Source: Candidatus Oxydemutatoraceae bacterium
GTDB lineage: Bacteria; Pseudomonadota; Gammaproteobacteria; Poriferisulfidales; Oxydemutatoraceae
Assembly (NCBI GenBank): GCA_965223735.1
Contig: OZ245010.1
Coordinates: 1,712,397 to 1,776,396 of the forward strand
Reading direction: 5' to 3'
DNA: 64,000 nt
Below are positions 8,329-32,345 of the stretch, one piece after another; position 1 is the first letter of the stretch, and each line of letters opens with the position of its first letter. Below the pieces are notes generated by a model, which was given only the letters and a program-made list of their open reading frames with translations, was not told the DNA's origin and did not search any database. The position numbers and the translations under genes were made by a program.

Positions 8329-9066
8329 TCAGTCGGTTTCTGCGACCATCAATTCGCGCGCTTTTTCTGCAAGTTGTTTGCGGTCGCCGTCGCCGGGCAG
8401 GCTGTCGGTGTAGCGCACGACGGCGTGTATGCACGGCTCGCCGAGCACCGCGAGGGCATGGGTGAAGAACGGCACGTCGCTGGTGTAGGGCGCTTTCTCG
8501 TGAACGCCGTCGTGTGCGCTGTTGCACGGGTAAGTGATGACCATCGGCTGCACCCACGCATGGGTGTCGATCGCGGCCATGAACAGGCGGGGGTGAAAGC
8601 GCTGTATTTCGGTGCCGTCCGAAGTCGTGCCTTCGGGAAAGAACGCGACGCTGGCGCCGACGCGCAGGCGTTCGCTGATCAACTGCGCCGCGGTTTCCGC
8701 GCCGGCGCCGCGGTCTATGAACAAGGTGCCGGCTTTGCGCGCGAGATAACCGATGATCGGCCAGCGCGCGACCTCGGCTTTCGACAGAAAACTCACCGGT
8801 TGCAGGCTGCCGACGATCACGATGTCCATCCACGAGATATGGTTGGCGACGACCAGCGACGCGCCTTCGGCGGGTTTGCCGTGAATATGCAGGCGGATGC
8901 CGACCAGTCGCGTGCAGGTGCGCAGCCACCAGCACACGATGCCGCGTTGCCGGGCGTTGCCCGCTTTATGTCCGTCGGGCGTCAGCGCGAAGATGCACAG
9001 CAGTATGCCGATGACGACGTGGATGCCGATCAGCGGGAGACGGATTGCAATGCGCAGGACGCTCAT
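8329..9066 (-). CDS. 1-acyl-sn-glycerol-3-phosphate acyltransferase family (PlsC/LPLAT)
   Basis: NHISWMDI (HX4D acyltransferase motif) and FPEGTTS motif. N-terminal TM segment. Confidence 0.75.
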   Translation of the reverse strand: MSVLRIAIRLPLIGIHVVIGILLCIFALTPDGHKAGNARQRGIVCWWLRTCTRLVGIRLHIHGKPAEGASLVVANHISWMDIVIVGSLQPVSFLSKAEVARWPIIGYLARKAGTLFIDRGAGAETAAQLISERLRVGASVAFFPEGTTSDGTEIQRFHPRLFMAAIDTHAWVQPMVITYPCNSAHDGVHEKAPYTSDVPFFTHALAVLGEPCIHAVVRYTDSLPGDGDRKQLAEKARELMVAETD

Positions 9067-9541
9067 GCGGGATCGGCCGTGTCGGGTCGCAACCCGTCCG
9101 GCGCCGGGTGAATGTCAACCAGTCGCGTGCAGGTGCGCAGCCACCAGCGCACGATGCCGCGCTGCCGCGTGCTGCCCGTTCTATGTCTGTCGGGTGTCAG
9201 CGCGAAGATGCACAGCAGTATGCCGACGACGACGTGGATGCCGATCAGCGGGAGACGGACGGCGATGCGCAGGGCGCTCATGCGGGATCGGTCGGGGTGG
9301 ATCGGAACCCGTCCGGCGCTGGGTGGAGATCGATCAGCCGCGTGCAGGTGCGCAGCCACCAGTGCACGATGCCGCGCTGCCGCGTGCTGCCCGTTCTATG
9401 TCTGTCGGGCGTCAGCGCGAAGATGCACAGCAGTATGCCGATGACGACGTGGATGCCGATCAGCGGGAGACGGATTGCAATGCGCAGGACGCTCATGCGG
9501 GATCGGCCGTGTCGGGTCGCAACCCGTCCGGCGCCGGGTGG
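8896..9541. repeat. Three tandem ~215-bp copies of the acyltransferase 5' end (about 45 codons) plus its upstream region
   Basis: Copies end at about 9110, 9326 and 9541 with a few substitutions. This produces the pseudo-ORFs 9063..9359(-) and 9278..9496(-), which repeat [18 protein letters not shown]. Confidence 0.8.
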
Positions 9542-21200: not shown

Positions 21201-21388
21201 CTTCGTGCCAAGCGGCACTTTCGCCGATGGATATTCTTCGGGGTAGGGTTTTTATCCTCCACCGCACGTTGAAAAATTCGGCATCCCAAGTCAATTAGGC
21301 CGGTTGGTTTGTCATGCTTATCCGCCTCAAGCAATGCCCATCCTATGGAATTGCTGCCGAGATCAAGCCCTAACACCTTCTTGCTCAT
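18280..21388 (-). CDS. cas9: Cas9 (type II-C), with the reading frame interrupted near 18566-18572
   Basis: RuvC-I MSKKVLGLDLGSNSIGWAL at the N-terminus, HNH motif NTEIDHILPLSRSLDDSYMNKV and RuvC-III HRHHAIDAVV. The 942-aa frame stops at 18563. The last ~100 aa (GKDYEFVMALHINDLVSI..., alignable to the NmeCas9 PAM-interacting domain) continue in another frame as the 18280..18675 ORF. No csn2 or cas4, hence II-C. Confidence 0.85.
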
Positions 21389-21416
21389 AGATGCATTCTC
21401 GTATATACTGGCCAGT

Positions 21417-21527
21417 AGTATAACTGACCAAGGCCTATCGATTAGCTTTTCATACCAATGAAATATCTTTTTCGTAGGCAACGCTTTTAAGCGACCAAGA
21501 GCCCTCCCAGCGGGGGCTCTTTTAATA
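21417..21527 (+). ncRNA. Candidate tracrRNA: a 23-nt anti-repeat plus downstream hairpins and terminator. Strand assignment is uncertain.
   Basis: 21417-21439 (AGTATAACTGACCAAGGCCTATC) is the exact reverse complement of repeat positions 14-36. It lies 28 nt upstream of the cas9 ATG. On the plus strand it is followed by hairpins (TTTCAT-ACCA-ATGAAA, CGCTT-TT-AAGCG) and an intrinsic terminator at 21497-21527. Confidence 0.45.
21497..21527 (+). terminator. Rho-independent terminator (8-bp stem followed by TTTT)
   Basis: aagagccc-tcccagcg-gggctctt followed by tt. Confidence 0.5.
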
Positions 21528-21549
21528 TCTGGGAATTATAATAGATAAC

Positions 21550-21822
21550 CTAACGACAAGATTGCTCGTTGAGCATCAAGTGAAGTATTGTCACTCCGCA
21601 AACACTTTCTCGAGGATGTAAATTAATCTGTGTAAGCGGCCAGTTCATGTTATGATCGGCACCCGGTCGCCGAACAGTATGATGAACTGATCCAGGGCCG
21701 CTTTCCAGTCCCTGATCGGCAGCGTCCATTTCTTTGACGCATTCCGCAAACCAGGATACAGGCAGTTTCCGGATCGCGTCGTCATGTGGGAACGCCCTGC
21801 GCCCCTTGATCACTTTCCTCAA
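21550..21822 (-). pseudogene. C-terminal fragment of an IS256-family (mutator-type) transposase
   Basis: RRAFPHDDAIRKL matches the IS256 C-terminal motif (FPN[DE][DE]A.LKL), and NMNWPLTQINL resembles the family's (I)RNW..LNQL tail. The intervening region does not align and the upstream roughly 300 aa of a transposase are absent. Lower GC than backbone. Confidence 0.4.
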
Positions 21823-21851
21823 ACTGTAGTTCAGAGACTCGATATCCCTCC

Positions 21852-22067
21852 ATGGGCACTACCTCGCTATACCGGGCACTCATCGAGGCGAACGTGTCTG
21901 ATGGGACCACCAAGAAAGCAGTTGAGGGACTGATTTCTGTTAATGAGGCGGCTACGAAAATGGACATCGCCGAATTGGAAGTCAGGCTGATCAAATGGAT
22001 CGTTGCCACCGCTATTGCTGTCGGCGGTGCAGTCATTGCAGCCATGGGGTTGATCGCCAGGCTCTGA
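21852..22067 (+). CDS. Small coiled-coil protein with a C-terminal TM helix, XhlA/DUF1640-like (second copy of this type)
   Basis: The 71-aa ORF ends ...EVRLIKWIVATAIAVGGAVIAAMGLIARL. It shares the K-[TI]-x-W-[VI]-V...GAV[VI] pattern with the 14658..14831 ORF. Confidence 0.35.
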   Translation: MGTTSLYRALIEANVSDGTTKKAVEGLISVNEAATKMDIAELEVRLIKWIVATAIAVGGAVIAAMGLIARL

Positions 22068-22166
22068 TAAGCTTTCCATCGCCAAGTCAGAAGTCAAGCT
22101 GATCATCAGCGTGGAGCATTGCCGCCTTGATCATTGCGGTCGCGCATTGTCTTAAGGAGAGCGAAC

Positions 22167-22448
22167 ATGACTTCGACTCCCCGTCAATCAGAAGTAGCCA
22201 CACGCTGGCGTTCTCGCGGGTTCAGTTGTGACCTGTGGGTGGACCCGCCGGGGCAGTGCTGGGAGGATTTCACGCACGCGACCGACGAACTGGTGATGGT
22301 GGTCGAGGGTGAAGTCGAATTCGAGATCACGGGTGAGGTGCGCCGTCCCGCGCCCGGAGAGGAGCTGCTGATACCGGCAGGCGCCGTTCATTCAGTTCGC
22401 AATATCGGCGCCGGCACCGCCCGTTGGTTATACGGTTATAAGCGTTGA
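22167..22448 (+). CDS. Cupin-domain protein
   Basis: Good RBS (aaggaga) before the ATG at 22167. Conserved-barrel motifs ...ELVMVVEGEVEFEI..G.....PGEELLIPAGAVHSVRNIG. Confidence 0.5.
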   Translation: MTSTPRQSEVATRWRSRGFSCDLWVDPPGQCWEDFTHATDELVMVVEGEVEFEITGEVRRPAPGEELLIPAGAVHSVRNIGAGTARWLYGYKR

Positions 22449-22467
22449 GGCCGAGGCAGACGCCTGG

Positions 22468-23595
22468 TCAGTATAAGTGCGGTTTGTGTCTGTCCTTCGG
22501 CGGAAAAATCACTTTCAACTTATTCAGCGGCGTATTGCGGGGCAGATGTTTTTGGTGTTGCAAACATCCCACAACGACGCCCGGGTGGATATTCAATTCT
22601 TTTGCGAATTTGCGGATCGCATGCGCGGACTTTGAGGCTTGTTTGAGTTGTTCCGAGTACTGCTTCGGGATCAGCGTGTTGATCGCAAATTGGCTGGCTT
22701 CTTTTTCGAGTCTGTTTTCATCCGGCATTATTTTGTCGTCCCAGAATGCCATCCGTCGGCTTTGGTGCAGCAGAATGTGGCCGGCTTCGTGAAAGAAAGT
22801 CAGCCAGAACTGATCGTTGGTCTTGCCATATAGCGGCAGTTGGATCAGTGGCCGGTTGGGTCTCAGCCAGCGCGCGATGCTGCTGACGTGCGCTTTCCTG
22901 AAAGCAGGCGTAATCGCCAGATGCACACCTGCGTCGAAGCACAGTTTCTCTATCCCGTGCTCAATCTCCTGTGGTTTTTCGACGGTCAGGTTCCGGATCC
23001 TTGCAATCGCCTTACGGAATTTTACTTTGCCATATTTCGCCGGGGTGCCTTGTTCCTCGGCTTCTATCTCACCCGTGCGCAGCAAAGCTGAAACCGCCCC
23101 CATGTCCTGCCGGCGTTTTTTCGTCAGCGAGAGCATCCTTTCTGTCTCTTCAAAACAGCTTTTCCATTGTTTCGGGGAAGCCACGCCGTAGAATTTCAGC
23201 GCTTCCCGGACAATGCGCGGTTTGTTCCCGGCCGTCTGCCTGGATTTTTCAATGTACCCGTTGTTCATTAACTCCCTGATCGGTATTTGTCTGAGCCACC
23301 TCACCCATTTACGGTATTTTTTGTCTTGCTTCAGGCGTAGCAGTTCAGCGCGGTAATGTGCTTCGCGGGTAAGCCAGAATTTCGCGGAGGGGCCTCCCAA
23401 CACTTGCTCAAGCACCGCAGCCGTTCCTTCAGTGATAGGCGCTTTGCCGTTGAAGAGAAGGCTTACGTGCTTTTCAGACCATCCGGTTCTTTTTGAAAAA
23501 TCAGTCTGTTTCCATCCCCGAGACCTGATAATGTCCTTGATGGTATCTCCCGCAGGAGATACCCGGTCGGGCTCAAATGTATTTAAATCAGACAT
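22468..23595 (-). CDS. HigA-like XRE-family HTH regulator fused to an ImmA/IrrE (M78, COG2856) zinc-metallopeptidase domain
   Basis: N-terminal HTH (GWKQTDFSKRTGWSEKHVSLLFNGKAPIT) and C-terminal HEAGH zinc-binding motif (FFHEAGHILLH). Overlaps the stop of the upstream toxin-like ORF by 8 nt. Confidence 0.7.
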   Translation of the reverse strand: MSDLNTFEPDRVSPAGDTIKDIIRSRGWKQTDFSKRTGWSEKHVSLLFNGKAPITEGTAAVLEQVLGGPSAKFWLTREAHYRAELLRLKQDKKYRKWVRWLRQIPIRELMNNGYIEKSRQTAGNKPRIVREALKFYGVASPKQWKSCFEETERMLSLTKKRRQDMGAVSALLRTGEIEAEEQGTPAKYGKVKFRKAIARIRNLTVEKPQEIEHGIEKLCFDAGVHLAITPAFRKAHVSSIARWLRPNRPLIQLPLYGKTNDQFWLTFFHEAGHILLHQSRRMAFWDDKIMPDENRLEKEASQFAINTLIPKQYSEQLKQASKSAHAIRKFAKELNIHPGVVVGCLQHQKHLPRNTPLNKLKVIFPPKDRHKPHLY

Positions 23596-23848
23596 GGTAG
23601 TCGCTTATTGACACGATCATTATTTTGGTAATTTTTTTCCAGTCGATATTGCCATCAGATAATTTTGGCGGGTCATGGTGATCATGGGTAAATACCAACC
23701 GTATTCCTCCGCTTATGCTGACCGCCCATTTGTTTTTCAATCGTCCATGCAACAAGTGAGGTTGTCTGTGAGGATTCTCTTTAGAGAAAACAGCCGCATT
23801 TTCCGCCGCTTTCGAGTCGCTGAGCACTGCGGGCGGGTTATTCGCCAC
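23588..23848 (-). CDS. HigB-like toxin (RelE/ParE superfamily, killer-protein family). N-terminal half poorly conserved. GTG start.
   Basis: LLHGRLKNKWAVSISGGIRLVFTHD..ISDYH aligns to the HigB consensus L.GDRKGQ[YW]SIRIN.QWRI.F.....VDYH. The toxin-then-antitoxin order is typical of higBA. Confidence 0.5.
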   Translation of the reverse strand: MANNPPAVLSDSKAAENAAVFSKENPHRQPHLLHGRLKNKWAVSISGGIRLVFTHDHHDPPKLSDGNIDWKKITKIMIVSISDYHV

Positions 23849-24035
23849 TTTCTTGTTGAGCAGGTGTTGTGCTTGTCTTTTTTCCTCACAGGTTCTTTTG
23901 CTTCGAGTTCCTGAATGAGATGGCTGTTTGTTAATATTTACCTATATGGTAAACTTTTTCAAGAGAATAGGTCAACTGATGATCCAGCCCCCGGCACGTC
24001 GGCAACCCGTGTTGATCCGATGAGCCGGTCATCAC

Positions 24036-24151
24036 CGCCCACACCCCACGCTGAACCGCCGTTTCCATTCCGGGTCGCGGCGGCGAGGCGGTTCAAATCA
24101 CGGGTGCAGGCCGTCCGGTTGCGTCCCCGGCTCGCGTTCATGCTTCAGGTC
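24036..24151 (-). pseudogene. Degenerate duplicate of the apaH 3' end (about 40 codons, with W->stop and an internal ~110-bp deletion)
   Basis: Minus-strand translation DLKHEREPGTQPDGLHP*FEPPRRRDP..RRFSVGCG matches ApaH DLGHKREPGTQPDGLHPWFEPPHRRDP...RRFSVRCGE encoded at 28140-28380. Nucleotide identity is clear over two blocks. Confidence 0.55.
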
Positions 24152-24244
24152 TATAATGAATGTTGATCGGATCAAATCGCCCAACGATCCGTTAAATAGA
24201 CTCGTTGCTATCTTGACAGGAAGTGATATTGATATGGAAAAACC

Positions 24245-26326
24245 ATGAGACAGAATGCTTTGAATCACTTGCGGATCGCACTTGGTGATCCTCAAGCGGA
24301 GTTCAGGGATGGGCAATGGGAAAGTATTTCGCAGCTTTTAGATCGTAGAAGGGTGCTTGTCGTCCAGCGTACCGGTTGGGGGAAAAGCATGGTTTATTTT
24401 TTGGCGACAAAGCTTATTCGAGAGTCGGGTTCAGGGCCAACCTTATTAATTTCTCCGCTATTATCATTAATGCGCAATCAGATTGAGGCTGCCGCGCGAA
24501 TTGGCATTACACCCAGGAAGATAGACAGTACCAATACCGGCGAATGGGATCAGATCAGGCAGGAGTTGACCGCTGATCAGGTAGATATATTGCTGATTTC
24601 TCCCGAACGCCTTGCAAATGCTTCCTTTCGCCGGCAAGTTTTCCCTGTTATTGCAGAAAACATCGGGCTTTTTGTGATTGACGAGGTTCACTGTATCTCA
24701 GACTGGGGGCATGATTTCAGACCGGATTACAAGCGTATCGTTCGTGTCCTTCAAGCTATTCCTTCCAATGTTCCGGTGCTGGCAACAACGGCAACAGCCA
24801 ATGACAGGGTTGTGGATGATGTCAAGTCGCAACTCGGGGATGACATTGAATTGGCCAGAGGTTCTTTAGTCAGAGAAAGCCTCAAACTTCAGAATATAAA
24901 TATGCCCAGTCCCGCAGCAAGAATGGCTTGGCTGGCACAGACTATTCCAAATCTTCCGGGCAGTGGAATAATCTATACTCTGACTCAGCGCGATGCAGAA
25001 CGACTCACTGAATGGCTTCAGCGCAACAGAATTCGTGCGGAAGCCTATCATGCCGACATCTCAAACCGCGAAGTGTTGGAACAGCGGTTGCTTGATAATG
25101 AAGTAAAAGTTCTGGTTGCCACCGTTGCTTTGGGGATGGGATTTGACAAGCCTGACTTGGGGTTTGTAATTCATTTTCAAAGGCCTGCTTCCGTCGTTCA
25201 TTACTATCAACAGGTTGGTCGTGCCGGTCGTGCTGTTAAAGAGGCGTATGGCATTCTGCTTTGTGGCGAGGAGGACGATCACATTGCAGATTACTTCATA
25301 CGCAGTGCCTTTCCACCTCAGCAGCATATTACCGCCATCCTTGAAACGCTTGATAAGGCGGATGATGGCCTGCCACCATCATCAATGCAAAATTTTTTAA
25401 ATATCAGCGGGTCACAAATTAAAAAAACGATCAAATATCTGACCATAGAATCCCCTTCTCCGATTGTAAAAGACGGTTCTAAATGGTATGCGACAGCTTC
25501 GGCGGCTGACTATGCAATTGATCAGGGGTATATAGAGGCAATTACCCGGATCCGGAGACAGGAACAGCGTCAGATGCAGGAATATATGGAACACAGAGGA
25601 TGCCTGATGGCATTCCTCCAAAATGCGCTCGATGACCCCAACTCACAGGGCTGCGGTAAATGCCGGAATTGTAACCCCGGACTTCTGCTTTCTGAACAGT
25701 ACAGCGATGAATTGGCAAACCAGGCGGCACTCTTTCTTAAAAGAGGCTGTCAACCAATCAAGCCTCGCAAGCAATGGCCCGCAGAGAATATGTTCAAACA
25801 TTATCCACTTGGAGGAAGGTGGATTCCACCAAAATTTCGAGCCTCTAAAGGTCGTGCCCTGAGTCTGTGGCGTGATGCCGGTTGGGGGCAACTCGTTGCC
25901 AAAGGGAAATATGAAACTGGAAGTTTTGCAGATGAGCTTGTAACCGCGTGTGTCGAGATGATTGCAGCATGGGATCCCAGACCGCCCCCCGAATGGTTGA
26001 CCTGCATACCTTCACTTGATCATCCTGAGTTAGTTCCGGATTTTGCACGGCGTTTAGCGGGTGGCCTGAAGCTGCCGTTTATTCCCTGTGTTCGGAAAGC
26101 AAGGCAGAATGATCAACAGAAAACCAGGGAAAACAGCTTTCAGAAAGCACGAAATTTGGATGGTGTTTTTGAAATCAACCTTGAACGGAATGATCCGTGC
26201 CTGTTGATCGACGACGTGGTTGACTCGGGGTGGACTTTTACCGTTGTATCCGCTTTGTTGCGTCAGGCGGGTTGCACGGCGGTTCGTCCTCTGGCATTGG
26301 CGCTTAATTCTCCAAGGATGAATTGA
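24245..26326 (+). CDS. RecQ-family SF2 DNA helicase with a RecQ-type Zn-binding motif, C-terminally fused to a ComF/GntX-type phosphoribosyltransferase (PRTase) domain
   Basis: Motif I RTGWGKS, motif II DEVHCISDWGHDFRPDY (RecQ DEAH box), III ATTATA, VI QQVGRAGR. Cys cluster CLMAF..GCGKCRNCNP like the RecQ zinc finger. C-terminal type-I PRTase signature NDPCLLIDDVVDSGWTF. GC about 47%. Confidence 0.8.
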   Translation: MRQNALNHLRIALGDPQAEFRDGQWESISQLLDRRRVLVVQRTGWGKSMVYFLATKLIRESGSGPTLLISPLLSLMRNQIEAAARIGITPRKIDSTNTGEWDQIRQELTADQVDILLISPERLANASFRRQVFPVIAENIGLFVIDEVHCISDWGHDFRPDYKRIVRVLQAIPSNVPVLATTATANDRVVDDVKSQLGDDIELARGSLVRESLKLQNINMPSPAARMAWLAQTIPNLPGSGIIYTLTQRDAERLTEWLQRNRIRAEAYHADISNREVLEQRLLDNEVKVLVATVALGMGFDKPDLGFVIHFQRPASVVHYYQQVGRAGRAVKEAYGILLCGEEDDHIADYFIRSAFPPQQHITAILETLDKADDGLPPSSMQNFLNISGSQIKKTIKYLTIESPSPIVKDGSKWYATASAADYAIDQGYIEAITRIRRQEQRQMQEYMEHRGCLMAFLQNALDDPNSQGCGKCRNCNPGLLLSEQYSDELANQAALFLKRGCQPIKPRKQWPAENMFKHYPLGGRWIPPKFRASKGRALSLWRDAGWGQLVAKGKYETGSFADELVTACVEMIAAWDPRPPPEWLTCIPSLDHPELVPDFARRLAGGLKLPFIPCVRKARQNDQQKTRENSFQKARNLDGVFEINLERNDPCLLIDDVVDSGWTFTVVSALLRQAGCTAVRPLALALNSPRMN

Positions 26327-26329
26327 TAA

Positions 26330-28135
26330 ATGAACAATCTTTTAACAGACGATACGAAATCGATAATGCTGCTCTGTGGCGTGCTTGGAAAAGCGCGCTC
26401 CATAAAACCACTCACGCAATCAGAATACAACAGGGTAGCCCGCTGGCTGATCGGTGAGAAAATGCGGCCGGCGGATCTGCTCCGATATGAAAATGTAGAT
26501 TTGGCGGCAATAAATTCCGGGATCGAGCTGCAACGATTGAAATCCCTGCTCGGAAGAGGCGTTCAGCTTGGGTTTGCTGTAGAGGAATGGCAACAGAACG
26601 GCATTTGGGTTTTGAGCCGAAGCGACCGGGATTATCCGGCACGGTATAAAAAGCATCTGAAGAATGAAGCACCTCCGCTTCTTTTCGGAGTAGGCGACAG
26701 GTCTCTTTTGCAGGGTGGTGGAGTTGCAATTGTCGGTTCGCGGAATGTGGACGGTGACGGAGAGGATTTTGCCCGTAAAGTGGCTGAGCTATGCGCTTAC
26801 AACAGAATGCCGGTTGTTTCAGGGGGGGCTCGCGGGGTTGACCAGATTGCCATGACCGCCGCACTTGATGCGGGAGGTGTGGTAATAGGCGTTCTTGCTG
26901 AAAATCTTCTGAGGAGAAGTCTTGAACGCAATGCACGCAGGGCAATCTCTGATGACCAGTTGCTTTTAATATCTCCTTACCGCCCGGATGCCCGCTTTAC
27001 AGTCGGGACGGCAATGGGGCGAAATAAGTTGATCTATGCCATGGCTGATTACGGCCTGGTCGTGAGTGCTGAGTATAAAAAAGGCGGCACCTGGGCCGGG
27101 GCGGTGGAAGAGCTGAAACGGGAAAATCCTCTACCGGTTTTTGTGAGATCGGGCGCAAATGTTCCTGTCGGCAACACAGAGTTGCTGTGTTCAGGTGCTC
27201 TGGAGTATCAGGAAGTGAAATATCGGGAAGAGCTGGGTCAACACCTCGCTGATCTTGCCAAGATTGTAAAAGGTCAAGAACAAGCACAGATCGACAGATC
27301 AGGGAAAGATGAAAAACAGGGAGTTCTTCCTATTGGTCCAACGATGGACAGTTCCGCGGTGGCGCCGGGACCCGGCATTTACGAGACTGTATTACCGGTG
27401 ATCATTGATCATCTGGGATCCCCAACCGCCTCCGGTGAATTATCGAAAACCCTGGACGTGTCGAAAGCACAGCTGTATCGCTGGCTCAGAAAGGCTGTGG
27501 ATGAAGGACGGATCCAAAAACTACTAAGTCCTGTGAGATATCAGGTAATAGAGGCGGAACCGGAAACCATTTACGAAGCCGTATTGCCGGTGATCATTGC
27601 TCATCTGGGATCATCAACTGCGGTCGATGAATTATCGAAAGCTCTGGACGTGTCGAAAGCACAACTGAATCACTGGCTCAAAAAAGCCGTGGATGAAGAA
27701 AGGATCCGAAAGCTATCGCAGCCCGTAAGGTATCAGGCAATGGAAGCGGCGCAGACAACCATTTGCGAAGCCGTCTCGCCGGTGATCATCAGTCATCAAA
27801 CTATTTACGAAGCTGTATTGCCGATGATCATTGCTCATCTGGGATCCCCAACTGCACCCGGTGAATTATCGAAAACGCTGGACGTGTCGAAGGTACAGTT
27901 GAACAGCTGGCTCAAAAAGGCCGTGGATGAAGGACGGATCCAAAAGTTATCGCAGCCCGTAAGGTATCAGGCAATGGCAGCGGAGCCGACAACCATTTAC
28001 GAAGCCGTATTGCCGGTGATCATTGCTCATCTGGGATCATCAACTGCGGTCGATGAATTATCGAAAACTCTGGACGTGTTGAAGGTACAGTTGAACAGTT
28101 GGCTCAAAAAAGCCGTGAATGAAGGAAGGATCTGA
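26330..28135 (+). CDS. DprA/Smf (SLOG-fold) domain protein with four C-terminal ~63-aa tandem winged-helix-like repeats
   Basis: DprA Rossmann core VAIVGSRNVDG..VVSGGARGVDQIAMTAALDAGGVVIGVLAENL. The C-terminus carries 4 repeats of IYEAVLPVIIAHLGS.TA..ELSKTLDVSK.QLN.WLKKAVDEGRIQKLSQPVRYQA. Starts 4 nt after the helicase-PRTase stop. Confidence 0.75.
   Translation: MNNLLTDDTKSIMLLCGVLGKARSIKPLTQSEYNRVARWLIGEKMRPADLLRYENVDLAAINSGIELQRLKSLLGRGVQLGFAVEEWQQNGIWVLSRSDRDYPARYKKHLKNEAPPLLFGVGDRSLLQGGGVAIVGSRNVDGDGEDFARKVAELCAYNRMPVVSGGARGVDQIAMTAALDAGGVVIGVLAENLLRRSLERNARRAISDDQLLLISPYRPDARFTVGTAMGRNKLIYAMADYGLVVSAEYKKGGTWAGAVEELKRENPLPVFVRSGANVPVGNTELLCSGALEYQEVKYREELGQHLADLAKIVKGQEQAQIDRSGKDEKQGVLPIGPTMDSSAVAPGPGIYETVLPVIIDHLGSPTASGELSKTLDVSKAQLYRWLRKAVDEGRIQKLLSPVRYQVIEAEPETIYEAVLPVIIAHLGSSTAVDELSKALDVSKAQLNHWLKKAVDEERIRKLSQPVRYQAMEAAQTTICEAVSPVIISHQTIYEAVLPMIIAHLGSPTAPGELSKTLDVSKVQLNSWLKKAVDEGRIQKLSQPVRYQAMAAEPTTIYEAVLPVIIAHLGSSTAVDELSKTLDVLKVQLNSWLKKAVNEGRI
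27371..28135 (+). repeat. In-frame tandem DNA repeat, about 4.2 copies of about 189 bp, encoding the C-terminal repeats of the DprA-like gene
   Basis: Units begin ATTTACGAAGCCGTATTGCCGGTGATCATTGCTCATCTGGGATC at 27571, 27803 and 27991, with a diverged first unit at 27371 and a partial 42-bp unit at 27761. Confidence 0.85.
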
Positions 28136-29367: not shown

Positions 29368-30187
29368 AGTGGTTGCCTCGCTTTCCTGATGCTGTTTGCT
29401 TGCCGTCAATCAAGTTTAACATGCCGAGGAAATCATCTACCCCCAGCGTTTCGGGGCGGGCGGCGGCGGACAGATTGAGCCGTGCGAAATCGGTGTCGTC
29501 GAGGGTGCCCGAGAAGATCCGCCCGATGGTTTTGCGCCGTTGCGAGAACGCACGTCCGACAAGGTTGAGGAACGCCCGCCGGCGTTGCGGGTCGAACGGG
29601 CACGGGCGCGGCAGCAGCCTGACCAGTGAGGAACTGACTTGTGGTGGCGGCGAGAACGCGCTGGGGGCGACGTCAAACAGATGGCGGACTTCCACGAAAC
29701 ACGCCGCGGTCACGCTCAGCCGCGAGTAATTGCGCGTGCCGGGTTGCGCGGCGAGGCGTTCAGCAACTTCGGTCTGTAACATCAGGTGCATGTCGCGGAT
29801 GTGTTCGCAGGTGTTGAACAAATGCATCAGCAACGGCGTCGAAACGTTATAGGGCAGGTTGCCGATGACTCTGATCTTGCGGTCCGTGTGCAGCGCTGCG
29901 AAGTCAAAGTCGAGCGCGTCGCGGCAGTGCAGCGTGAAGGCTTTGTTTTCGGCAAAGCGTTGCGTCAGCCGGTCGGCGAGCGCGTGGTCGATTTCAACGG
30001 TGTCGAGGTGGGCGCAGCGTTCAAGCACCGGCGCGGTCAACGCGCCGAGGCCGGGGCCGATTTCGACGATCGCCTCGTCCGGGGCCGGCGAGATCGCCTC
30101 AACCACGCGCGCGACGGTCTGTGTGTCGGTGAGGAAATGCTGGCCGAAGTGTTTTTTAGCCGGGGTGTTCATCGCCTTGAGGCTCAT
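29351..30187 (-). CDS. rsmA: 16S rRNA (adenine1518-N6/adenine1519-N6)-dimethyltransferase
   Basis: FGQHFL...[17 protein letters not shown], KsgA family. pdxA-ksgA-apaG-apaH order. Start is uncertain (30187 or 30172). Confidence 0.85.
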   Translation of the reverse strand: MSLKAMNTPAKKHFGQHFLTDTQTVARVVEAISPAPDEAIVEIGPGLGALTAPVLERCAHLDTVEIDHALADRLTQRFAENKAFTLHCRDALDFDFAALHTDRKIRVIGNLPYNVSTPLLMHLFNTCEHIRDMHLMLQTEVAERLAAQPGTRNYSRLSVTAACFVEVRHLFDVAPSAFSPPPQVSSSLVRLLPRPCPFDPQRRRAFLNLVGRAFSQRRKTIGRIFSGTLDDTDFARLNLSAAARPETLGVDDFLGMLNLIDGKQTASGKRGNHYEKPL

Positions 30188-30770
30188 CGTTCGGGGGCCT
30201 GTTTTATCCGGCTTGCTCACTGGCGGTTCTCAGTGCTCATCGTTCGGGGATTCGTTGTTTCAACGGTGTCGAGGCGGCACCGCGTTCGAGCACCGGCGCG
30301 GTCAACGCGCCGAGGCCGGGGCCGATTTCGACGATCGCCTCGTCCGGGGCCGGCGAGATCGCCTCAACCACGCGCGCGACGGTCTGTGTGTCGGTGAGGA
30401 AATGCTGGCCGAGGTGCTTTTTAGCCGGGGTGTTCATCGCCTTGAGGCTCATCGTCCGGGGGCCTGTTTTATCCGGCTTGTTCACTGGCGGTTCTCAGTG
30501 CTCATCGTTCGGGGATTCGTTGTTTCAATGGTGTCGAGGCGGCACCGCGTTCGAGCACCGGTGCGGTCAATGCGCCGAGGCCGGGGCCGATTTCGACGAT
30601 CGCCTCGTTCGGGGCCGACGAGATCGCCTCAACCACGCGCGCGACGGTCTGTGTGTCGGTGAGGAAATGCTGGCCGAGGTGCTTTTTAGCCGGGGTGTTC
30701 ATCGCCTTGAGGCTCATCGTTCGCGTGTTTGTTTTGCCTGCCTGCTCACCGGCGCCCCTCAATGTTGATC
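29995..30770. repeat. Three tandem ~265-bp copies of the ksgA 5' end (about 60 codons) plus its upstream leader
   Basis: Copies start at about 29995, 30260 and 30525. The pseudo-ORFs 30237..30485(-) and 30502..30762(-) repeat [23 protein letters not shown]...[17 protein letters not shown]. Confidence 0.8.
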
Positions 30771-31865: not shown

Positions 31866-32345
31866 TGCAGCAACGGTGTTCCAGCAACCAGGCGGGTGTT
31901 CAAAAGACAGGCGAGGTCATGCGGTTTCCGGGATGACCACGCGGCGCGGGAATGACCCGCAGCGGAACTTGCGGAGGGACCAGTGAGCAGCGGTGTTCCA
32001 GCAGCCAGGCGGGTGTTCAAAAGACAGGCGGGGTCATGCGCTTTCCGGGATGGCCACGCGGCGCGGGAATGACCCGCAGCGGAACTTGCGGAGGGGTCAG
32101 TGAGCAACGGTGTTCCAGCAACCAGGCGGGTGTTCAAAAGACAGGCGGGATCGTGCGCTTTCCGGGATGGCCACGCAGCGCGGGAATGACCCGCAGCGGA
32201 ACTTGCGGAGGGGCCAGTGAGCAGCGGTGTTCCAGCAGCCAGGCGGGTGTTCAAAAGACAGGCGGGATCGTGCGCTTTCCGGGATGGCCACGCGGCGCGG
32301 GAATGACCCGCAGCGGAACTTGCGGAGGGGTCAGTGGGTGGCGGC
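31866..32345. repeat. Intergenic tandem repeat, 4 x ~120 bp, between pdxA and surA
   Basis: The unit gcaacggtgttccagcaaccaggcgggtgttcaaaagacaggcgXggtcatgcgXtttccgggatgXccacgcggcgcgggaatgacccgcagcggaacttgcggagggXXcagtgagca occurs four times. Each unit contains a hairpin CCGCA-GCGGAACT-TGCGG. Confidence 0.8.

What the first reader, a model, noticed from the sequence alone, without database searches (positions are those of the whole stretch)
22468..23848. higB-like toxin paired with an antitoxin in which the HigA HTH is fused to an ImmA/IrrE (M78) metallopeptidase domain
The toxin-first order and the 8-nt overlap look like higBA. However, the antitoxin is 375 aa with an intact HEAGH zinc site. 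This merges a TA antitoxin with the protease half of ImmR/ImmA-type SOS- or phage-responsive switches. The toxin N-terminal half is poorly conserved and uses a GTG start, so it may be decaying while the HTH-peptidase persists. Both situations are common in defence islands.
Basis: partly seen in the sequence, partly recalled or inferred. Interest (0 to 1): 0.5.

Follow-up and report, generated by a model that had tools for sequence, protein, structure and literature searches.

The report
Broken HigB toxin with HTH-peptidase partner
This is a copy of a widespread, already described two-gene toxin–antitoxin-like defence module (HigB-like RNase plus a DNA-binding protein fused to a zinc peptidase) in which the toxin gene has lost its start and been frameshifted while the partner gene is intact, so it is an ordinary, partly decayed member of a known family.

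Summary
On the minus strand, a 375-aa ORF (22468-23595) carries a HigA-type HTH and an M78 peptidase domain with an intact HEAGH site. It overlaps an 86-codon GTG ORF (23588-23848) by 8 nt.

The small ORF hits no Pfam, NCBIfam or PADLOC model. It is still a clear member (67.9 bits) of a conserved ~109-aa partner family, found upstream of the HTH-M78 gene in 68 of 80 related loci. That family's profile reaches Proteus vulgaris HigB.

The toxin gene is damaged at its 5' end. Its first 13 ancestral codons (23889-23927) lie in another frame, end in TGA, and have lost the ATG. A 96%-identical relative shares the frameshift but keeps the ATG. The remaining frame is open, keeps the HigB catalytic residues, and shows only suggestive constraint.

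A conserved operator, TTTACC-N5-GGTAAA (23937-23953), is retained.

The architecture was predicted in 2009. A distant three-gene relative, PD-lambda-2, was tested in 2022, and there the HTH-peptidase was the toxic part.

The module sits in a low-GC defence island between a type II CRISPR-Cas9 locus and PsyrTA.

Verdict: a new member of a known kind, of low to moderate interest.

The parts
22468..23595 (-). Intact 375-aa HigA-HTH / helical middle domain / M78 (ImmA/IrrE) peptidase gene, the PD-lambda-2 B-type component
   Evidence: ORF. Pfam HTH_3 and Peptidase_M78 both above cutoff. PADLOC PD-Lambda-2_B at E 1.4e-29 over residues 17-349. At least 996 homologs. AF2 model pLDDT 84.6. Fold hits to CapP, IrrE and HigA.
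23389..23541 (-). HigA-type helix-turn-helix domain (residues 19-69)
   Evidence: Pfam HTH_3 at 28.3 bits. TIGR02607 HigA at 26.6 bits, below its 47.7 cutoff. Family profile against solved HigA at E 1e-10.
22588..22872 (-). Peptidase_M78 core (residues 242-336), including HEAGH at 22777-22791 and the probable third zinc ligand E297/E299
   Evidence: Pfam match. Invariant H269, E270, H273, E297 and E299. Sequence read directly.
23588..23848 (-). 86-codon GTG-initiated ORF: the C-terminal about 3/4 of a HigB-like gene, overlapping the downstream gene by 8 nt
   Evidence: ORF. Family HMM match at 67.9 bits. Equivalents of HigB H54, R73 and D90-Y91-H92 retained. AF2 model finds HigB first.
23849..23890 (-). 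In-frame extension upstream of the GTG, homologous to family positions about 14-27 (CEEKRQAQHLLNKK). It contains no ATG, GTG or TTG.
   Evidence: Translation. HMM alignment from model position 8.
23886..23927 (-). Stranded ancestral N-terminus in a different frame: ACA (formerly ATG) then AISFRNSKQKNL, followed by TGA. The frameshift lesion lies within 23889-23900.
   Evidence: This is the best of 94,066 12-mers across all six frames of the window against the family N-terminal PSSM: 17.5 bits against 11.1 for the next best. The 96%-identical relative L082 has ATG at 23927-23925 and CGA instead of TGA, with no indel relative to the window.
23937..23953 (.). Palindromic operator candidate TTTACCTATATGGTAAA
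   Evidence: The core TTACC-N5-GGTAA occurs 300-480 nt upstream of the HTH-M78 start in 63 of 80 related loci. It occurs only 3 times elsewhere in 640 kb, and only once in the 64-kb window. Inverted repeat reported.
23933..23975 (-). Two overlapping sigma-70-like promoter matches that overlap the operator
   Evidence: TTGACC-18-TACCAT and TTGAAA-18-AATATT. These are consensus matches only.

Best explanation
The locus is a horizontally acquired copy of a widespread two-gene module. The first gene encodes a HigB-like (RelE-superfamily) protein. The second encodes a HigA-type HTH fused, through a helical domain, to an ImmA/IrrE (M78) zinc peptidase. This is the 'Xre-COG2856 fusion with a RelE toxin' class. 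It is also a distant, C-less relative of the A and B components of the PD-lambda-2 defence system.

Inferred mechanism of intact members:
- The HTH domain represses the operon at the conserved TTTACC-N5-GGTAAA operator and holds the HigB-like mRNA endonuclease in check.
- The peptidase domain acts as a signal-activated switch, by analogy with ImmA/ImmR, IrrE/DdrO and CapP/CapH, which respond to DNA damage or phage cues. It inactivates the HTH part.
- That de-represses the operon and frees the RNase, giving growth arrest or abortive infection.

In this window the second gene, operator and promoter are intact. The HigB-like gene cannot make a full-length product. A small indel at 23889-23900 separates its first 13 codons from the rest, and in this strain the ATG has become ACA and a TGA closes the stranded piece. 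At most an N-terminally truncated protein (86 aa from the GTG at 23848) can be made, translationally coupled to the downstream gene. The module is therefore most likely toxin-disabled: an autoregulated HTH-peptidase with a crippled partner.

Shown: domain identities, family membership, the lesion, the operator conservation and the island context.
Inferred: who is toxic, what the peptidase cleaves, and whether the truncated product is made.
For: - Domains: Pfam; structure-level matches.
- Partner family: an intact ~109-aa gene upstream in 68 of 80 genome loci and a hit in 29 of 33 viral or prophage loci. The window ORF scores 67.9 bits against the family HMM. The family profile hits solved HigB at E 9e-6, and HigB tops the fold search.
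- Active site: HigB active-site equivalents are conserved across the family and in the window.
- Lesion: the out-of-frame N-terminus is the top PSSM hit in the window. The sequence is identical in two Logan assemblies from different runs. The same frame structure occurs in a 96%-identical ENA contig that still has the ATG.
- Divergence: the window copy matches only 17 of 29 highly conserved columns (other members: minimum 18, median 28). The partner matches 90 of 108.
- Recurrence: an intact HTH-M78 gene with a disrupted or absent HigB-like gene is seen in about 10 of 78 informative loci, with lesions at different sites. That is what is expected if the small protein is the dispensable, toxic part.
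- Operator: present in 63 of 80 loci.
- Literature: Makarova 2009 predicted this three-part logic. PD-lambda-2 gives abortive-infection defence.
- Context: low-GC island with Cas9 and PsyrTA.
Against: - In PD-lambda-2, the only tested relative, overexpressed B (the HTH-peptidase) was toxic and A (HigB-like) rescued it. This is the opposite of the role assignment used here.
- The remnant frame is not obviously neutral. Against the 96% relative it has 7 synonymous and 5 nonsynonymous changes, falling at codon positions 1/4/7 for first/second/third. Its odds ratio against neutral sites is 0.39, equal to the intact partner's 0.40. Significance is weak (P 0.04-0.06) once the extreme transition bias (78:5) is allowed for.
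- No proteolytic target, signal or toxicity has been shown for any member of this subfamily.
- The loci were found with a pattern containing FFHE. The sample therefore cannot reveal members with a dead peptidase.
Confidence: 0.7

Rival explanations
1. Role reversal, as in PD-lambda-2. The HTH-M78 protein is the growth-inhibiting effector and the HigB-like protein is its neutraliser or regulator. On this view the truncated 86-aa product is still made and is kept by selection, because it restrains the peptidase.
For: - Vassallo 2022 found PD-lambda-2B toxic alone and rescued by PD-lambda-2A.
- The window protein matches the PD-Lambda-2_B model nearly end to end at E 1.4e-29.
- The remnant ORF has stayed open for 101 codons since before a 4% strain divergence. 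Its nonsynonymous deficit matches that of the partner (OR 0.39 against 0.40).
Against: - About 10 of 78 related loci keep an intact HTH-M78 gene with no intact partner. That should be lethal or counter-selected if B were toxic at native levels.
- The family conserves the HigB catalytic residues, which a mere neutraliser would not need.
- Partner proteins do not hit the PD-Lambda-2_A model, and no C component is present.
- The selection signal is weak (P 0.04-0.06).
- There is no recognisable ribosome-binding site before the GTG (read).
Confidence: 0.17
2. The frameshift is an assembly or sequencing artefact, for example a homopolymer miscount in the A4 run at 23896-23899. On this view the strain carries an intact higB-like gene.
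For: - cas9 in the same island is also frameshifted, exactly at an A6 run at 18635-18640.
- The window contains odd 90-96%-identical large-period repeats and a 95%-identical thyA-folA duplication, which could indicate assembly problems.
- Removing one A from the A4 run would join the two frames.
Against: - Two Logan assemblies from separate runs are 100% identical across the region.
- An independent ENA contig at 96% identity has no indel relative to the window.
- Even without the frameshift, this strain has ACA in place of the ATG, with a TAA stop only two codons upstream of that ACA.
Confidence: 0.08
3. Programmed recoding: a +1 ribosomal frameshift at CUG-UGA (window) or CUG-CGA (relative), similar to the prfB CUU-UGA site, yields a full-length HigB-like protein.
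For: The junction places a Leu CUN codon before a stop or rare Arg codon in both strains. This resembles known +1 shift sites. That resemblance rests on established knowledge of prfB and Ty1 and was not tested here.
Against: - The window has no start codon for the upstream frame.
- There is no Shine-Dalgarno-like stimulator upstream.
- A +1 shift would skip the conserved Cys.
- 68 of 80 family members are single-frame.
- The other frameshifted members (L011, L034, L077) break at different positions.
Confidence: 0.03

Closest known systems
PD-lambda-2 anti-phage system of E. coli (Vassallo et al. 2022, PMC9519451)
   Same: Gene order is HigB-like first, followed by a HigA-HTH fused to a C-terminal ImmA/IrrE peptidase. 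The window's 375-aa protein matches the PADLOC PD-Lambda-2_B model over residues 17-349 at E 1.4e-29. Both lie in a defence context.
   Different: There is no third (P4-antitoxin-like) gene; downstream lies a convergent cupin gene. The small protein and its family do not hit PD-Lambda-2_A. No DNA-level relative was found in 5,426 E. coli genomes when an enterobacterial family member was used as query. The small gene here is 5'-disrupted.
RelE/PIN toxin plus Xre-COG2856 fusion, the 'three-component TAS' predicted by Makarova, Wolf and Koonin 2009 (PMC2701414)
   Same: This is exactly that architecture class: a Zn peptidase fused to an HTH, in an operon with a RelE-family gene, found on plasmids and prophages. 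Here it was found on 43 plasmids and 33 viral contigs.
   Different: That paper is purely computational and gives no mechanism. The present subfamily has its own ~109-aa HigB-like partner, with an insertion of roughly 20-30 residues relative to P. vulgaris HigB, and a defined operator motif.
Proteus vulgaris (Rts1) HigB-HigA
   Same: Toxin-first order. The HTH profile matches HigA at E 1e-10 and the partner profile matches HigB at E 9e-6. Equivalents of H54, R73 and D90-Y91-H92 are conserved.
   Different: HigA is about 100 aa with no peptidase. Pfam PF05015 scores for the partner family are below the gathering cutoff (13-18.5 bits against 27). The TIGR02607 score is below its cutoff.
ImmA/ImmR (ICEBs1), IrrE/DdrO (Deinococcus) and CapP/CapH (CBASS regulators)
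   Same: M78 peptidase with HExxH, paired with an XRE HTH. CapP and IrrE are the best fold matches for the C-terminal part. This is the basis for the 'signal-activated cleavage of a repressor' model.
   Different: In those systems the protease and repressor are separate proteins and control other genes, not a HigB-like RNase. Cleavage in cis or trans has not been shown for the fused family.
RosmerTA (RmrA antitoxin: HTH plus M78)
   Same: Same two-domain idea.
   Different: Only the ~80-residue peptidase core matches RmrA models (E 1e-7 or weaker), so this is not a member.

Membership tests
HigB-type RelE-superfamily toxin (Pfam PF05015; P. vulgaris HigB) | Match to PF05015 above the gathering score | tested here: not met
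   The window ORF gives no hit at E<=10. Intact family members score 13-18.5 bits against a cutoff of 27.
HigB-type RelE-superfamily toxin (Pfam PF05015; P. vulgaris HigB) | Profile-level homology to a solved HigB | tested here: met
   The family profile A2 hits 4mct_B/4mcx_B/4px8_A at E 9e-6 to 2.5e-5. The window ORF is a member of that family at 67.9 bits.
HigB-type RelE-superfamily toxin (Pfam PF05015; P. vulgaris HigB) | RelE/HigB alpha-beta fold | tested here: inconclusive
   AF2 model pLDDT 74.9. The top Foldseek hits are HigB chains at prob 0.95-0.98, but TM is only 0.48-0.54 and E >= 0.098. The modelled sequence lacks the N-terminal strand.
HigB-type RelE-superfamily toxin (Pfam PF05015; P. 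vulgaris HigB) | Catalytic residues equivalent to H54, R73 and D90-Y91-H92. The roles of these residues are recalled from the HigB literature and were not re-read here. | tested here: met
   The hmmalign mapping gives QPH, IRLVF and SDYH in the window. The equivalent of R60 in the GDR motif is Leu.
HigB-type RelE-superfamily toxin (Pfam PF05015; P. vulgaris HigB) | Complete ORF with a start codon | tested here: not met
   The first 13 ancestral codons are out of frame. The ATG is replaced by ACA, and a TGA follows codon 13.
HigB-type RelE-superfamily toxin (Pfam PF05015; P. vulgaris HigB) | Ribosome-dependent mRNA cleavage and toxicity | not testable with these tools
   Requires expression and cleavage assays.
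HigA antitoxin | XRE/HigA-type HTH | tested here: met
   HTH_3 scores 28.3 bits against a cutoff of 23. The profile hits solved HigA at E 1e-10. Foldseek hits HigA at prob 1.0, TMt 0.7-0.77.
HigA antitoxin | TIGR02607 equivalog score | tested here: not met
   26.6 bits against a cutoff of 47.7.
HigA antitoxin | Toxin-first operon with an upstream palindromic operator | tested here: met
   8-nt overlap. TTTACC-N5-GGTAAA lies at 23937-23953 and is conserved in 63 of 80 loci. Binding was not tested.
ImmA/IrrE M78 (COG2856) metallopeptidase | Pfam PF06114 above cutoff, with HExxH and a downstream Glu conserved | tested here: met
   29.8 bits against a cutoff of 22. H269, E270, H273, E297 and E299 are invariant. 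CapP and IrrE are the top fold hits.
ImmA/IrrE M78 (COG2856) metallopeptidase | Signal-dependent cleavage of an XRE repressor | not testable with these tools
   Requires biochemistry.
PD-lambda-2 defence system | B component (HTH-peptidase) | tested here: met
   PADLOC PD-Lambda-2_B at E 1.4e-29, covering model positions 62-377 of 402.
PD-lambda-2 defence system | A component matching the PD-Lambda-2_A model | tested here: not met
   No PADLOC hit for the window ORF, the reconstructed protein or three intact family members at E<=10.
PD-lambda-2 defence system | Third gene (C, P4-antitoxin-like), required for defence | tested here: not met
   The downstream neighbour is a convergent cupin gene. 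In three related loci (L026, L039, L048) a homologous ~165-aa gene follows the HTH-M78 gene; the L039 copy carries a SocA_Panacea domain but does not hit PD-Lambda-2_C.
PD-lambda-2 defence system | Anti-phage (abortive infection) activity | not testable with these tools
   Requires phage challenge.

The most novel reading that the evidence does not exclude
The 5'-truncated HigB-like ORF may not be a dying pseudogene. It may be a domesticated, non-toxic partner kept by selection because it restrains or tunes a growth-inhibitory HTH-M78 protease, as PD-lambda-2A restrains PD-lambda-2B. In that case the 'toxin' and 'antitoxin' roles in this large family would be reversed or bidirectional, and this strain pair would be a natural separation-of-function allele.
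Probability: 0.12. Interest if true: 0.5.

Novelty: new member of a known kind. Interest (0 to 1): 0.25.

Why it matters
The value is mainly for annotation. The small ORF escapes every standard HMM, and gene callers start it arbitrarily (79 or 86 aa). The locus would therefore be read either as an orphan 'HigA/ImmA' gene or as an intact higBA pair. It is neither.

At family level, three results could help anyone studying PD-lambda-2-like systems. None is specific to this window, and none overturns current understanding.
- A sharply defined operator, TTTACC-N5-GGTAAA, is conserved from cyanobacteria to proteobacteria and Methanoregula-assigned MAG contigs.
- The HigB-like gene is recurrently lost while the HTH-peptidase gene stays intact.
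- The module habitually sits inside R-M and other defence operons.

The loss pattern argues that, at native expression, the HTH-peptidase is not the lethal component. That bears on the unexpected toxicity result reported for PD-lambda-2B.

Tried and rejected
- Direct HMM scans of the 86-aa ORF, and of the 117-codon open frame, against Pfam and NCBIfam found nothing even at E=10. PADLOC likewise gave no hit for the 100-aa frame at E<=0.01 or for the reconstructed protein at E<=10. The word-index homolog search found only the ORF itself. Homology became visible only through the synteny partners of the HTH-M78 gene.
- A DNA search with an enterobacterial family member against all complete E. coli genomes found no match. 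The link to PD-lambda-2 therefore rests on the PADLOC B model alone.
- PADLOC models for PD-Lambda-2_A and _C were not matched by partner proteins or by the Panacea-domain downstream gene.
- NG86 pN/pS (0.19 for the remnant) first looked like clear purifying selection at P 0.005. I downgraded it after seeing ts:tv = 78:5. Under a transition-only null, P is 0.04-0.06.
- Programmed frameshifting, and transcriptional slippage at the nearby A6 run, were considered and rejected. Slippage is rejected because the TGA that closes the stranded frame (23886-23888) lies upstream of the A6 run and the upstream frame has no start codon. For the +1 ribosomal shift, a shift would also skip the conserved Cys.
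- A sequencing artefact was considered and judged unlikely.
- The organism could not be named.
Full report
**1. What is at the coordinates**

On the minus strand there is a 375-aa ATG ORF (22468-23595) and, immediately upstream, an 86-codon GTG ORF (23588-23848). They overlap by 8 nt.

The long protein passes the Pfam cutoffs for HTH_3 (residues 19-69) and Peptidase_M78 (residues 242-336). HEAGH is residues 269-273 (nt 22777-22791).

In an alignment with 18 homologs of 44-50% identity, H269, E270, H273 and E297/E299 are invariant.

An AlphaFold2 model (pLDDT 84.6) shows three parts: an N-terminal HTH, a long helix with a helical middle domain, and a C-terminal alpha/beta peptidase domain. Its best PDB matches are CapP (7t5t), IrrE/PprI (3dte, 3dti, 8sln) and a long list of HigA structures. 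At sequence level the family profile reaches P. vulgaris HigA at E 1e-10.

**2. The small ORF**

On its own it matches nothing in Pfam, NCBIfam or PADLOC. It has no relatives in a word-indexed search of 5.8 billion proteins other than itself.

I therefore used synteny. The long protein has at least 996 homologs.

In 80 retrieved loci, the gene immediately upstream on the same strand is almost always a conserved ~109-aa protein ending in GDYHD. An HMM of 65 of these proteins matches the window at 67.9 bits, and the match starts upstream of the GTG.

Individual members give only sub-threshold PF05015 scores. The family profile, however, hits solved P. vulgaris HigB at E 9e-6. A profile search finds at least 2,214 members, some called 'killer protein' or 'RelE/ParE toxin' by their sources.

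The AF2 model of the window frame (pLDDT 74.9) finds HigB chains first, at modest scores. Equivalents of HigB H54, R73 and D90-Y91-H92 are conserved in the family and retained in the window; the Arg of the GDR motif is Leu. So 'higB-like' is right at family level.

**3. The toxin gene is broken at its 5' end**

In frame, homology runs only to 23890, and there is no ATG, GTG or TTG between the upstream stop and the GTG at 23848.

I scored a PSSM of family positions 2-13 against all 94,066 stop-free 12-mers in the six frames of the whole window. The best hit is AISFRNSKQKNL at 23924-23889, at 17.5 bits; the next best scores 11.1. It lies directly upstream but in another frame, and is followed by TGA. 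The codon where the family has Met is ACA, and a TAA lies two codons further up.

Two Logan contigs from different runs are 100% identical to the window here. An ENA contig (L082) is 96.0% identical over 2,055 nt with no gaps, so it shares the frame break. It reads ATG GCC ATC... (MAISFRNSKQKNL) and has CGA where the window has TGA.

The frameshift is a 2-nt loss at the CTG|TGT junction or a 1-nt gain in the adjacent A4 run. It therefore predates a 4% strain divergence. The start-codon loss and the stop are later events in the window lineage.

The window copy is also the most divergent member at conserved columns. It matches 17 of 29, against a minimum of 18 and a median of 28 for the others. 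The partner matches 90 of 108, within the family range.

**4. Is the remnant drifting?**

Against L082, the 300-nt remnant frame has 12 substitutions. Seven are synonymous and five nonsynonymous, falling at codon positions 1/4/7 for first/second/third. The intact partner has 15 synonymous and 12 nonsynonymous.

NG86 gives pN/pS of 0.19 for the remnant and 0.23 for the partner. However, 78 of the 83 differences are transitions, which inflates synonymous counts.

Under a transition-only null, the excess of synonymous changes has P = 0.06. The deficit at nonsynonymous sites against pooled neutral sites has P = 0.044. The odds ratio is 0.39, the same as the partner's 0.40.

I treat this as suggestive only. 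The remnant may still be translated, for example from the GTG and coupled to the downstream gene through the 8-nt overlap, and it may still matter.

**5. Family-level anatomy**

A palindrome, TTTACC-N5-GGTAAA, lies 300-480 nt upstream of the HTH-M78 start in 63 of 80 loci. That places it just upstream of the small gene. It occurs only three times elsewhere in 640 kb. It occurs once in the 64-kb window, at 23937-23953, overlapping two promoter-like matches. This is the probable operator of the HigA-type HTH.

Of the 80 loci, 68 have a full-length, single-frame partner. About ten keep an intact HTH-M78 gene with a disrupted or absent partner:
- frameshifted at a different site in each: L011, L034, L077
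- 5'-truncated: L003, L038, L066
- absent: L012, L055, L061, L068

The gene after the pair is variable and is usually another defence gene. Examples are type I R-M S or R subunits, a type III methylase, GajA, a Ppl-like ATPase, a Panacea-domain protein, Hypoth_Ymh and DUF4238. The pair also occurs on 43 plasmids of many phyla and on 33 viral or prophage contigs.

**6. Context in the window**

The module lies in a low-GC stretch (0.38-0.51 against 0.60-0.65 in the flanks) from about 16.4 to 28.1 kb. This stretch contains:
- a CRISPR array of nine 36-nt repeats
- cas2, cas1 and cas9
- a cupin gene
- the module itself
- a PsyrT/PsyrA pair, divergently oriented (PADLOC E 3.7e-285 and 1.8e-147)

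It is a defence island.

**7. What is known**

Makarova et al. 2009 reported that COG2856 peptidases are often fused to Xre HTH domains. They noted that many fusions sit in operons with RelE or PIN toxins, and proposed a three-component TA with a protease that cleaves the repressor.

Vassallo et al. 2022 isolated PD-lambda-2 from E. coli. Its A component is HigB-like, B is a HigA-HTH fused to a peptidase, and C is P4-antitoxin-like. Overexpressed B was toxic, A rescued it, and C was needed for defence.

The window's long protein matches the PADLOC PD-Lambda-2_B model nearly end to end at E 1.4e-29. It matches RmrA and CapP models only over the peptidase core. The small protein family does not match PD-Lambda-2_A, and there is no C gene. 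The locus is therefore a distant, two-gene relative of PD-lambda-2 A/B, not a PD-lambda-2 system.

**8. Mechanism**

The best-supported model for intact members has three steps:
- The HTH represses the operon at the palindrome and neutralises a HigB-like mRNA endonuclease.
- The M78 domain, by analogy with ImmA, IrrE and CapP, is activated by a damage or phage cue and inactivates the HTH part.
- The RNase is released.

This model is inferred. Three observations support it: the RNase active site is conserved across the family, loss of the small gene is tolerated repeatedly while the long gene stays intact, and PD-lambda-2 shows an abortive-infection phenotype. The PD-lambda-2 toxicity data argue against it, and I keep role reversal as the main rival.

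In this window the full-length RNase cannot be made. The module is most likely toxin-disabled, with an intact autoregulated HTH-peptidase and possibly a truncated partner.

**9. Verdict**

It is not novel: this is a divergent, partly decayed member of a described and widely annotated family, in a typical defence island. Interest is low to moderate.

Noticed in passing
window 24245-28135 (+): A complete PsyrTA (RqlHI-type) defence pair sits divergently next to the module. PsyrT is a RecQ-like helicase fused to a phosphoribosyltransferase domain (693 aa, PADLOC E 3.7e-285). PsyrA is DprA-like (601 aa, E 1.8e-147). PsyrA is about 200 aa longer than the 398-position model, because its C-terminus carries tandem ~64-78-aa HTH-like repeats (DNA repeats of 192 and 234 nt at 27376-28023).
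   Followed up: partly
window 16448-21481 (-): A type II CRISPR-Cas locus: nine identical 36-nt repeats (16448-17010, spacers of 29-30 nt), cas2 (17059-17391), cas1 (17388-18287) and cas9. The cas9 reading frame breaks at an A6 run (18635-18640); the C-terminal about 115 residues continue in the overlapping ORF 18280-18675. This is either a real frameshift or a homopolymer error. No tracrRNA or other Rfam family was found in the island at gathering thresholds.
   Followed up: partly
window ~16400-28100: A low-GC island (0.38-0.51) sits in a 0.60-0.65 GC backbone, between folA and a metallophosphoesterase/ksgA/pdxA cluster. It holds the CRISPR-Cas locus, a cupin gene, the HigB-like/HTH-M78 module and PsyrTA.
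   Followed up: partly
window 12908-14303 and 15002-16404: thyA-folA is present twice in tandem, at 95.0% identity (63 mismatches, 4 gaps). That is about the same divergence as between the window and the related contig L082. It may be a real duplication at the island border, or two strains assembled in series.
   Followed up: partly
window 8903-9540, 29992-30720, 31869-32336: Large-period tandem repeats at high identity, some falling inside long ORFs: 215 nt x3 at 90%, 265 nt x2.7 at 96%, and 117 nt x4 at 95%. One falls in or next to the ksgA-like gene. This is unusual for housekeeping genes and may be an assembly artefact.
   Followed up: no
loci L002-L081, 300-480 nt upstream of the HTH-M78 start; window 23937-23953: The palindrome TTTACC-N5-GGTAAA is conserved upstream of the pair in 63 of 80 loci, from cyanobacteria, proteobacteria, Anaerolinea and Methanoregula-assigned MAG contigs. 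Some loci have two copies 20-65 nt apart. The background rate is 3 hits in 640 kb.
   Followed up: yes
loci L002-L081, downstream of the HTH-M78 gene: The gene following the pair is highly variable and mostly defence-related: type I R-M S subunit in 7 loci, type I REase in 3, type III methylase in 4, and GajA, a Ppl-like ATPase, a SocA/Panacea-domain protein (3 loci), Hypoth_Ymh and DUF4238 in others. The pair behaves as a cassette inserted into other defence operons.
   Followed up: partly
window 22029-24083 versus L082: Of the 83 differences between the window and the 96%-identical ENA contig, 78 are transitions (ts:tv about 16). This is far above typical bacterial values. It could be a mutational peculiarity of the lineage or a data artefact. 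It weakens simple dN/dS estimates.
   Followed up: partly
window 22134-22448 (+): A 104-aa Cupin_2 protein gene converges on the 3' end of the HTH-M78 gene, with a 19-nt gap. It is the most divergent segment against L082 (7.5%).
   Followed up: no
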